Assembly (NCBI GenBank): GCA_046045965.1
Contig: JBJOKS010000024.1
Coordinates: forward strand, 1 to 64,000
DNA: 64,000 nt
Direction of reading: 5' to 3'
Origin: Cyanobacteriota bacterium
GTDB taxonomy: Bacteria > Cyanobacteriota > Cyanobacteriia > Cyanobacteriales > Nostocaceae
The notes under the pieces are model-generated. The model saw nothing but the letters and a program-made list of their open reading frames with translations. It was not told the DNA's origin and made no database searches. This document shows, one piece after another, positions 52,073 through 60,655 of this stretch (position 1 is its first letter; each line of letters starts with the position of its first letter). The translations under genes and the position numbers were made by a program.

Positions 52073-52549
52073 CTAACTAGCTAACAGAGTTTTTTCTAGA
52101 GGAGTCCAGCGGAAATAGCGATCGCCACCTCGTTCAATTACCACCTTGACCCGTGGTTCTAACTTCGGCAAATTCGCTAAATACTCCACTTCCTGATCAG
52201 AAAGAATATATCCCTCAATAATCCACAACAGTAGACCCTTAGACTTGGGTGGTAGCTGTTCCAGATGAGAACTGATCATAGGTGGTAAATAATACACCTC
52301 ACCCACCGCAGCACCGCTACCAGTGCTTTTTTTACCCAGATGAGGAGGTCTTACACCATGAACTCTTGTCAGATAGGCAGCAACATCTCCTAGTCCTCTA
52401 GCTGTAATGTGAAGGTTGGTGTAGCCAGCAGCCCGTAATCGACGGCGATACCGACCTTCATAGCCTCCCTCCAAAGGAACATATACACCCAGAGCGCCAA
52501 ATTTCTCCAAATCCCGGATTAAACCGTTGCCAGTGGTAATTAGTGCCAT
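52073..52549 (-). CDS. ndhN: NAD(P)H-quinone oxidoreductase subunit N
   Basis: MALITTG..LIRDLEK.GALGVYVPLEGGYEGRYRRRLR, HGVRPPHLGK. Confidence 0.96.
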   Translation of the reverse strand: MALITTGNGLIRDLEKFGALGVYVPLEGGYEGRYRRRLRAAGYTNLHITARGLGDVAAYLTRVHGVRPPHLGKKSTGSGAAVGEVYYLPPMISSHLEQLPPKSKGLLLWIIEGYILSDQEVEYLANLPKLEPRVKVVIERGGDRYFRWTPLEKTLLAS

Positions 52550-52713
52550 AGATTTTCGTCTTATTCCACTTAGATATCTCTATTATTCACCTTTTGATGG
52601 TAGATTAAGTTGGATTAAGGCACAGAATTTTAGCAAAACTCGGCATTGAACGCAGGTAAGTTGCTAATTTTCCACGTTTTTATCCTCCCAGGAAAATCTG
52701 CCCATTAAACTAC

Positions 52714-52742
52714 TAGACAAAAACAAATTAATGATTTATATT
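52714..52742 (+). promoter_or_regulatory. Candidate sigma70-type promoter of the ribosomal-protein operon
   Basis: TAGACA-N17-TATATT. Confidence 0.5.
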
Positions 52743-52747
52743 ATTAG

Positions 52748-53470
52748 ATTGTGACCAAACAGTAAAATTAGGTAGCTCTCTAAATTTAGCAATCTCAACC
52801 AGTCAGAGCATCAAAATTTGATGAATTGGAATTTTCAAAAGAATAATCTGGTAAAAATGCACAAGAGACTGCTAAACTAAAAAAGCTTTCAGGTCAAAAT
52901 TAGAAGCTAATGGCTATTAACCCAAAGCCAAATTAAAGCTTCCTGCCACCGTTCACTCCCGCAGCCCCTAAAAAAAGGCAAAACCTCAAACATCAAGTTT
53001 AAGGTATTTATGAAGTAGAACCTGAAGAGTAAGTTTCAGGAAACGGATACTGAGTGGTAATGTCCACTTAAGTCCTACTACAACCGGAGAGTGCCAGAGC
53101 AATCGCTTGGACGAAAGCATTGCTGCACAAAGAGCAAAGCAATAACGTCTTGATTGATTTCCGAAGTAACGCCTTTTGATCACAAAGGTAATTATTACTG
53201 TTTAGCGCATTTGGCTAGAGCTGGAAAAGTTGTCGAGAGAGAACCGTTGTCATGCTCCCGTTAAAGCAAGAAGTAAAGTCTAGACTTGTCTAGGTTTTAT
53301 ATAGCAGTGAAAAAATAAACGGATTAACCAAAAAGTAGGGAAACAGTTTGTTGCGTCATTAAGAATTTGCACTGTCTAACGCCAGTCCAAATTTGGGAGG
53401 AAATTCCCGCCCAAAACGACGCAGACAAAGCTTGTCCCCAGTCCGATTCCAAGGTCAGCAACTAGATAAG
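52748..53470 (+). ncRNA. Candidate long structured leader RNA upstream of rplC
   Basis: Many nested complementary segments (see findings); no convincing ORF. Confidence 0.45.
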
Positions 53471-53484
53471 GAGAACCAGTTACT

Positions 53485-54123
53485 GTGTCTGTAGGTATTC
53501 TCGGCACCAAGCTGGGCATGACCCAAATCTTTGACGATGCAGGAAGAGCTATTCCTGTCACCGTCATTCAAGCCGGGCCATGCACTGTTACACAAGTTAA
53601 AACAAAACCGACCGACGGTTACTCTGCCATCCAAGTTGGTTATGGCGAAGTTAAACCCAAGGCGTTAAATAGACCACTGCTAGGACACTTAGCAAAATCA
53701 TCCGCCCCAGCATTGCGGCACTTGAACGAATATCGCACCGATGCTTCAGGTGATTATGCTTTAGGTCAAGAAATTAAGGCAGATATTTTTAGTGCAGGTC
53801 AAATTGTCGATGTAATCGGTACAAGTATCGGTCGTGGTTTTGCAGGCAACCAGAAGCGTAACAACTTCGGTCGCGGTCCCATGTCTCATGGTTCCAAAAA
53901 CCACAGAGCGCCCGGTTCCATCGGTGCTGGTACAACCCCTGGTCGTGTTTATCCCGGAAAACGGATGGCAGGACGCTTGGGAGGTACTCGTGTCACAATT
54001 CGCAAACTAACCATAGTGCGAGTAGATGCAGAACGCAACCTCATATTAGTTAAGGGTGCTATTCCTGGTAAACCAGGTGCATTAGTGAATGTTGTACCCA
54101 CAAATAAAGTTGGTAGTAAATAG
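53485..54123 (+). CDS. rplC: 50S ribosomal protein L3
   Basis: [39 protein letters not shown] start with AAGGAG. Confidence 0.98.
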
Positions 54124-59221: not shown

Positions 59222-59568
59222 TGGCAAAGCCACAACCGAAAGTTTTCCATAAAATGCACGTCAAAACAGGCGACACTGTACAAGTGATAGCTGGTAAAGA
59301 CAAGGGTAAAGTTGGTGAAGTAATTAAAGCATTACCACAACTGAGCAAAGTCCTTGTCAAAGGTGTGAATATGAAAACAAAGCACGTTAAACCTCAGCAA
59401 GAAGGGGAGTCTGGGCAGATAGTTACCCAAGAGTATCCCATTCATAGCTCTAACGTCATGCTCTATTCCACCAAGCAAAACGTCGCTAGTCGAGTCTGCT
59501 ACACTTTCACCGCTGAAGGCAAGAAAGTGAGAATGCTCAAAAAAACAGGCGAGATACTCAACAATTAA
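59221..59568 (+). CDS. rplX: 50S ribosomal protein L24
   Basis: [25 protein letters not shown] overlap with rplN. Confidence 0.98.
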
Positions 59569-60253: not shown

Positions 60254-60655
60254 ATGGCGGCTAACGACACAATTGCAGATATGCTGACGCGCATCCGCAA
60301 TGCTAACCTGGCAAGGCATCAAACTACACTAGTGCCAGCCACAAAAATGACTCGTAGTATTGCCAAAGTACTACAGCAAGAAGGCTTTATTGCTGAAATT
60401 GCGGAATCAGGAGAAGGGATAAAGCGTAACCTAGTAATTTCATTGAAATACAAAGGTAAAAATCGTCAACCCCTAATCACAGCCTTGAAGCGAGTGAGTA
60501 AACCAGGTCTGCGCGTTTACTCCAATAGAAAAGAATTACCCAGAGTATTAGGTGGTATCGGTATCGCCGTTATTTCTACATCCAGTGGGATTATGACTGA
60601 CCGCGAAGCGCGTCGTCAGAACTTGGGTGGTGAAGTGCTTTGCTACGTTTGGTAG
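60254..60655 (+). CDS. rpsH: 30S ribosomal protein S8
   Basis: [30 protein letters not shown]. Confidence 0.98.

What the first reader, a model, noticed from the sequence alone, without database searches (positions are those of the whole stretch)
52714..53484. ~730-nt densely structured leader RNA ahead of the rplC operon
Seen: the ndhN-rplC gap is about 935 bp. A TAGACA-N17-TATATT promoter candidate (52714-52742) is followed by nested, multi-branch complementarity rather than scattered hairpins. Domain 1: TGACC/GGTCA (52752/52892) encloses TTTAGCAATCTC/GAGACTGCTAAA (52785/52865), ACCAG/CTGGT and CATCAA/TTGATG. Next come GAAGCT/AGCTTC (52903/52937) and ACCTCAAAC/GTTTAAGGT (52983-53005). Domain 2: GTAG/CTAC closes CCTGAA/TTCAGG and TGAGTGG/CCACTTA (53015-53081). 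Domain 3: CGGAGA/TTTCCG encloses CAATCG/TGATTG, GGACG/CGTCT and TTGCT/AGCAA (53085-53163). Domain 4: TTTGTTGCGTC/GACGCAGACAAA (53347/53418) encloses TTTGGG/CCCAAA, about 30 nt before the RBS. Known: r-protein operons often carry autoregulatory leaders, but these are usually much shorter, and cyanobacterial rplC operons lack rpsJ. Inference: an undescribed large cis-regulatory RNA or co-transcribed ncRNA.
Basis: partly seen in the sequence, partly recalled or inferred. Interest (0 to 1): 0.72.

Follow-up and report, generated by a model that had tools for sequence, protein, structure and literature searches.

The report
Cyanobacterial ribosomal leader with S8 site
The long untranslated leader in front of the main ribosomal-protein operon of cyanobacteria contains a small conserved hairpin that copies the ribosomal-RNA docking site of protein S8, so S8 probably throttles its own 20-gene operon from the very front.

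Summary
The promoter and a ~736-nt 5' leader are real. All 15 listed arm pairs are present, the promoter is conserved across cyanobacteria, and Nostoc PCC 7120 has a mapped 688-nt leader on one rplC-to-adk transcript that includes rpsH. It is not one conserved 730-nt fold. Leader length runs from about 190 to over 700 nt. The universal part is a 31-nt hairpin (53045-53075), found in 174 of 183 plus 17 of 20 loci, with compensatory changes. Its loop reproduces the uS8 site of 16S rRNA helix 21, permuted as in the E. coli spc operator. Best reading: an S8-sensing autoregulatory leader. Binding is inferred from mimicry, and the output (attenuation or processing versus translation) is unresolved. 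A 2026 screen reported a conserved structure upstream of cyanobacterial rplC without naming a ligand in its main text.

The parts
52073..52549 (-). ndhN, divergent neighbour
   Evidence: Pfam NdhN; synteny in most loci
52714..52742 (+). sigma-70-type promoter of the rplC operon
   Evidence: conservation starts here
52748..52756 (+). inferred transcription start (52748-52749) and conserved 5' end
   Evidence: PCC 7120 TSS lies 200 nt from the ndhN start, here 199
52752..52896 (+). domain 1, Nostocaceae-specific nested helices
   Evidence: outer helix 91% paired; inner helices 73-78% with compensatory changes
52954..52960 (+). conserved anti-Shine-Dalgarno-like tract (Nostocaceae), candidate switch strand
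   Evidence: 86% paired with the SD, no covariation
52983..53005 (+). conserved hairpin
   Evidence: 90% paired
53015..53081 (+). three-way junction: basal helix, side hairpin 53020-53041, S8 hairpin
   Evidence: z -3.44; 85-89% paired
53045..53075 (+). universal core: uS8-binding-site mimic of 16S rRNA helix 21, circularly permuted
   Evidence: site definition in PMC4176348
   Evidence: 92-99% paired; z -3.20 for the first
53172..53200 (+). hairpin followed by a U-rich stretch, candidate pause or weak terminator
   Evidence: 81% paired, five compensatory pairs; not called a terminator in this genome
53204..53307 (+). remnant of the right end of an IS607-family tnpB element, ending in CAG
53347..53429 (+). 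domain 4; inner hairpin 53363-53395 conserved, outer stems weakly
   Evidence: 80% paired with 11 compensatory pairs; outer 47-73%
53468..53473 (+). Shine-Dalgarno sequence of rplC
53485..54123 (+). rplC (uL3), first gene of the fused S10-spc operon
60254..60655 (+). rpsH (uS8), proposed ligand, in the same operon
   Evidence: co-transcribed in PCC 7120

Best explanation
This is the 5' leader of the fused S10-spc ribosomal-protein operon, acting as a uS8 sensor. Shown: transcription starts at a conserved promoter, and the leader always carries a hairpin whose internal loop copies the S8 site of 16S helix 21, on top of a basal helix whose 5' strand differs between lineages. Inferred: free S8, in excess when rRNA synthesis lags, binds this hairpin on the nascent RNA. 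The other Nostocaceae domains are lineage-specific scaffold, and the IS607 remnant is a tolerated passenger. My odds: S8 binds about 0.85; regulation at transcript level about 0.55.
For: The loop carries the helix-21 residues named in PMC4176348 (A595, A596, G597, U641, A642, C643, U644, A640) and matches 3 of 3 cyanobacterial 16S helices read here. Among the 174 strict matches position 641 is U (169) or A (5), and cyanobacterial 16S has A there. The strand order equals that of the E. coli spc operator, A+80-(A+81-U+11). Strict motif in 174 of 183 loci, looser variants in 5 more, and 17 of 20 further loci, while the bare pattern occurs only 0-8 times per genome. The stem covaries: 96.1% paired, 89 double changes against 24 shuffled, 0/500. 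rpsH lies on the same transcript. No paired S8-like site at rplE or in the 20-nt rplE-rpsH spacer here. In Synechocystis the leader (ncl0380) rises while the operon falls after UV. The site is 133-599 nt from the start codon, too far for simple occlusion. Terminator-like hairpins downstream in 41 of 50 non-Nostocaceae leaders against 23 expected.
Against: No binding or reporter data exist. No + strand terminator is called in this genome, and the enrichment in Nostocaceae is weak (22 of 40 against 15). The excess elsewhere may only reflect more hairpins. No conserved link from the S8 hairpin to a terminator or the RBS passed multiple testing (best z -3.3 of 1466). An all-against-all covariation scan of 72 leaders found nothing above my null. 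The UV result could equally be leader stability. Three genomes of family f44 lack the motif.
Confidence: 0.55

Rival explanations
1. S8 binds the same hairpin but represses translation of rplC through long-range refolding, for example the tract at 52954-52960 pairing with the Shine-Dalgarno sequence, with coupling and mRNA decay spreading the effect.
For: The E. coli S8 operator is translational. The tract is conserved in Nostocaceae, 86% complementary to the SD, and part of the consensus fold; it has an alternative partner just 3' of the S8 hairpin in this clade.
Against: No covariation in that pairing. Forcing it costs 2.5-12.3 kcal/mol in 10 of 10 leaders, and both states leave the S8 hairpin intact. 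No SD pairing signal outside Nostocaceae.
Confidence: 0.25
2. The S8 site does not regulate the operon in cis; the stable leader RNA acts as a sponge or hand-over site for newly made S8.
For: The leader is seen as a separate sRNA in Synechocystis (ncl0380; nc26), and the site is far from any control signal.
Against: The site's fixed place ahead of the operon encoding S8 fits cis-autoregulation, the usual role of such mimics.
Confidence: 0.08
3. One reading: one large ~730-nt structured RNA, possibly sensing L4 or L3.
For: Several Nostocaceae helices are conserved; L4 controls the E. coli S10 leader.
Against: Length varies from 192 to over 700 nt; an IS remnant sits inside it; no Rfam leader family matches; the one universal motif is S8-like.
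Confidence: 0.09
4. Neutral spacer with chance hairpins.
For: Long intergenic regions of this genome fold better than shuffles on average; the all-pairs scan was negative.
Against: Phylum-wide motif at one locus with compensatory changes; mapped long leaders.
Confidence: 0.03

Closest known systems
E. coli spc operon S8 operator at the rplE start
   Same: Helix-21-like internal loop, same strand order, and rpsH within the controlled operon.
   Different: Lies in a 5' leader ahead of rplC, 133-599 nt from any start codon, not over a start codon; the known operator is described for Gammaproteobacteria; no such site at rplE here.
16S rRNA helix 21 (primary uS8 site)
   Same: Same loop residues and flanking pairs.
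   Different: Circularly permuted; mostly U at 641 where cyanobacterial 16S has A.
Conserved RNA structure upstream of rplC in PMC12873609 (NAR 2026)
   Same: Same locus, present in most cyanobacteria, high covariance; probably this hairpin (inference).
   Different: Main text names no ligand or mimicry; its figure S12.2 could not be read.
E. coli S10 leader (uL4 attenuator)
   Same: Long structured leader in front of the L3-L4 genes, possibly acting on transcription.
   Different: Different motif and proposed ligand; no rpsJ in the operon; no Rfam match.
IS607-family tnpB element right end
   Same: About 79-81% identical to the last tnpB codons and right end of intact copies, same terminal CAG.
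   Different: Only about 104 nt remain; no tnpA or tnpB at this site.

Membership tests
uS8-binding mRNA operator (spc type) | Internal loop with A595-(A596-U644), (G597-C643)-U641 and A642 inside a helix | tested here: met
   Sequence and pairing match; the triples themselves are not observed
uS8-binding mRNA operator (spc type) | rpsH encoded on the same transcript | tested here: met
   PCC 7120 TU02826
uS8-binding mRNA operator (spc type) | Overlaps the rplE initiation region | tested here: not met
   Site is upstream of rplC; none at rplE. So it works like the spc operator but is not a member of it
uS8-binding mRNA operator (spc type) | S8 binds and represses | not testable with these tools
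   The S8 here keeps the VY, STS and GGE motifs aligned with solved S8 proteins; binding untested
Described Rfam leader families (S10, L4 and others) | Covariance-model match | tested here: not met
   0 hits at E<=5 in the window stretch; only a tRNA in 11 other loci at gathering threshold
Transcription attenuator | Intrinsic terminator or mapped 3' end in the leader | tested here: inconclusive
   None called in this genome; 41 of 50 against 23 elsewhere; ncl0380 behaviour
Large unitary structured ncRNA | Conserved size and multi-domain fold with significant covariation | tested here: not met
IS607 remnant | Homology to the end of elements with IS607 transposase and TnpB | tested here: met
   NF033518 above cut-off upstream of tnpB in L221; guided_TnpB above cut-off in 2 of 2 copies; ends align

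The most novel reading that the evidence does not exclude
Most oxygenic cyanobacteria control their whole fused S10-spc operon by an S8-triggered attenuation or cleavage step in a 5' leader, acting at a distance of hundreds of bases. This would be a new output for S8, gained after the lineage of family f44 split off, with the released leader persisting as an S8-binding small RNA.
Probability: 0.3. Interest if true: 0.75.

Novelty: new variant of a known kind. Interest (0 to 1): 0.58.

Why it matters
A 2024 review says S8 control outside gamma-proteobacteria is unknown, and a 2026 preprint says ribosomal-protein feedback is unstudied in cyanobacteria. A 2014 paper guessed the S8 target lay in the rpl5-rps8 spacer. 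This gives a precise 31-nt site, a ligand and single-base tests for the largest ribosomal operon of a whole phylum, and assigns a likely function to a structure that a genome screen listed without one.

Tried and rejected
Rfam scans: nothing. All-pairs covariation on 72 of 99 Nostocaceae leaders: no pair above a home-made null, which also missed a known S8-stem pair (E about 128), so it has little power. Pairing of the 5' end with early rplC codons: suggested by folding, rejected by permutation, 91 of 300. Long-range 5'-end pairing with 53175-53185: 46% paired, rejected. The 65-aa minus-strand ORF: interrupted by stops in several of the 14 rows shown, so not a gene. Shared 10-11-mers with rRNA: chance level by my estimate. 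RNA runs: only contigs were available. Those of X1 and X2 (two studies) cover most of the leader with 0-1 differences per contig, IS remnant included. Contigs cannot show start, strand or level, DNA may be present, one X1 contig begins at 52650 upstream of the promoter, and the depth drop at rplC in X1 is absent in X2, so none of this is used. A 31-position covariance model found 7 of 16 other loci and missed L090, L091, L093 and L196. The sRNA catalogue supplements of PMC4734099 had no hit; PMC2662882, cited as prior detection, has no rplC or rpl3 in its main text. 16S and rpsJ were not found in this 92%-complete assembly, so 16S came from relatives.

Full report
Observation. The 935-bp gap lies between ndhN and rplC. 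The 771-nt stretch folds better than 20 of 20 shuffles (z -2.81). The first 500 nt of 8 Nostocaceae leaders give z -3.4 to -5.7; 22 long intergenic controls of this genome average -1.66, two of them being as low. Rfam has no match.

Promoter and transcript. Similarity to relatives begins at the promoter. The same hexamers and a conserved 5' end recur across oxygenic cyanobacteria. I gathered 200 loci; one lacked rplC and duplicates were removed, leaving 183. Leaders measured from this promoter are 499-1286 nt (median 684, n=101) in the loci I grouped as Nostocaceae and 192-703 nt (median 348, n=71) elsewhere. Supplement rows of PMC10287535 give, for Nostoc PCC 7120, one unit rplC...rpsH...adk1 with a mapped start and a 688-nt 5' UTR, falling on nitrogen step-down. 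That start is 200 nt from the ndhN start codon; the predicted one here is 199 nt away, though this distance varies among relatives. PMC3925133 (passages) gives 337 nt for Synechocystis.

What is conserved. On 72 of 99 Nostocaceae leaders (near-duplicates removed) the consensus keeps the outer helix of domain 1, the hairpin at 52983, the domain-2 junction and an inner domain-4 hairpin. This alignment is sequence-based, so percentages for variable helices are lower bounds. An all-pairs covariation scan on it found nothing significant. Outside Nostocaceae I saw no common counterpart of these domains by inspection (output partly cut).

The universal core. One hairpin, 53045-53075, is shared. A strict pattern finds it in 174 of 183 loci; the pattern fixes the loop letters, so the count and not their invariance is the result. 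Five more loci carry looser variants, three from other classes of the phylum with rpsJ directly upstream lack it, and one sits at a contig end. In 20 further loci 17 match, two weakly, and the three genomes of family f44 have a short leader of about 70 nt without it. The bare pattern occurs 0-8 times per genome in 44 genomes. In 63 hand-picked diverse copies the stem is 96.1% paired with 89 double changes against 24 in shuffles (0 of 500); slid controls reach at most 51%. Kinship inflates such counts.

The core mimics the S8 site. PMC4176348 (passages) defines the helix-21 site by A595-(A596-U644), (G597-C643)-U641 and A642. Here G53046-U53051 read as 639-644 and A53070-C53074 as 595-599; the numbering of the flanking pairs is recalled. 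Three cyanobacterial 16S genes show the same two strands in the opposite order, with A at 641; the leader has U in 169 and A in 5 of 174. The leader's strand order is that of the E. coli spc operator. rpsH is in the operon and keeps the RNA-contact motifs in alignment with solved S8 proteins. Three loose pattern matches elsewhere in the operon do not fold as the site, and none lies at the rplE start. The rplE-rpsH spacer, proposed as target in PMC3925133, is 20 nt here and lacks the motif.

Context of the hairpin. Outside Nostocaceae the bases just 3' of the hairpin are species-specifically complementary to the 5' end (z -6.3 in 64 leaders; nine other offsets null) or to the bases just upstream (z -5.4, best of 1466 window pairs in 49 leaders). 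In 68 Nostocaceae leaders the 5'-end pairing is absent (z +1.1) and the 53015/53081 helix takes its place. So the hairpin sits on a basal helix, with variable inserts around it.

Mechanism. S8 binding is inferred from mimicry. The site lies 133-599 nt from the start codon, so direct occlusion is unlikely. For a transcript-level output: PMC10989929 and its preprint (passages) report that ncl0380, the rpl3 5' UTR, rises while the operon falls after UV; terminator-like hairpins follow the site in 41 of 50 non-Nostocaceae leaders against 23 expected. Against it: only 22 of 40 against 15 in Nostocaceae, and none in this genome. For a translational output: a conserved anti-SD-like tract at 52954-52960, without covariation and energetically disfavoured. 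I put transcript-level control at 0.55 and translational control at 0.25.

The insertion. 53204-53307 is missing in the two closest relatives aligned and matches many dispersed copies in 5 of 5 genomes. These copies are the ends of tnpB elements, some with an IS607 transposase, and all 13 displayed end in the same CAG. That this end encodes the TnpB guide-RNA scaffold is recalled, not tested.

Prior knowledge. PMC12873609 (abstract, sections 9 and 26, passages; supplement unreadable) reports a high-covariance structure upstream of rplC in most cyanobacteria and names no ligand in the main text; the unseen figure S12.2 bears on novelty. PMC7247131 and PMC3616713 (passages) showed no cyanobacterial S8 leader. 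PMC10931766 (passages) calls S8 control in other species unknown. PMC13640635, PMC2662882, PMC10939160, PMC6693541 and PMC5341163 were seen as passages, and PMC4734099 as a supplement search. Ten library searches turned up no assignment of S8 to this leader; most subscription papers are not covered. An unchecked note of this scan, seen after I had stated this reading, proposes an S8-like site before rplC in CPR bacteria.

Verdict. A real, long, partly described ribosomal-protein leader. The new content is the S8-site mimic in a new position and the modular anatomy. New variant of a known kind; interest 0.58.

Noticed in passing
window 53204-53307; G000:C4:207835-209001: The IS607 right-end remnant is co-oriented with a highly used leader, and an intact related tnpB (365 aa) lies elsewhere in the genome; the remnant could be transcribed as a guide-RNA-like scaffold followed by leader sequence.
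   Followed up: partly
L024, L029, L015, L122, L142: Other Nostocaceae leaders are 80-340 nt longer than close kin; G034 (L024) has a match to the same IS end inside its leader, suggesting repeated insertions here.
   Followed up: no
L019, L026, L040, L150 (side hairpin before the core): In many Nostocaceae the 5' strand of the side hairpin resembles the 5' strand of the S8 loop and could pair with the core's 3' strand as an alternative fold.
   Followed up: no
L224-L226 (family f44): Promoter and 5' end are present but the leader is about 70 nt and lacks the S8 motif; rpsJ lies elsewhere in G345.
   Followed up: partly
L090, L091, L092, L093 (family f20): Small-genome cyanobacteria keep a variant loop (A at 641, sometimes C at 595) and a different 5' leader motif.
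   Followed up: partly
window 59492-59558: A helix-21-order near-match inside rplX; does not fold as the site.
   Followed up: partly
G000:C2:189516 and C3:104837: Control intergenic regions with strong folding (z -7.1 and -3.9).
   Followed up: no
window 52550-52713: The ndhN-side part of the spacer folds with z -3.09 on the + strand.
   Followed up: no
G363:C1:3028565-3033214; G331:C1:2027370: A second partial rplC copy in G363 and only a partial match in G331.
   Followed up: no
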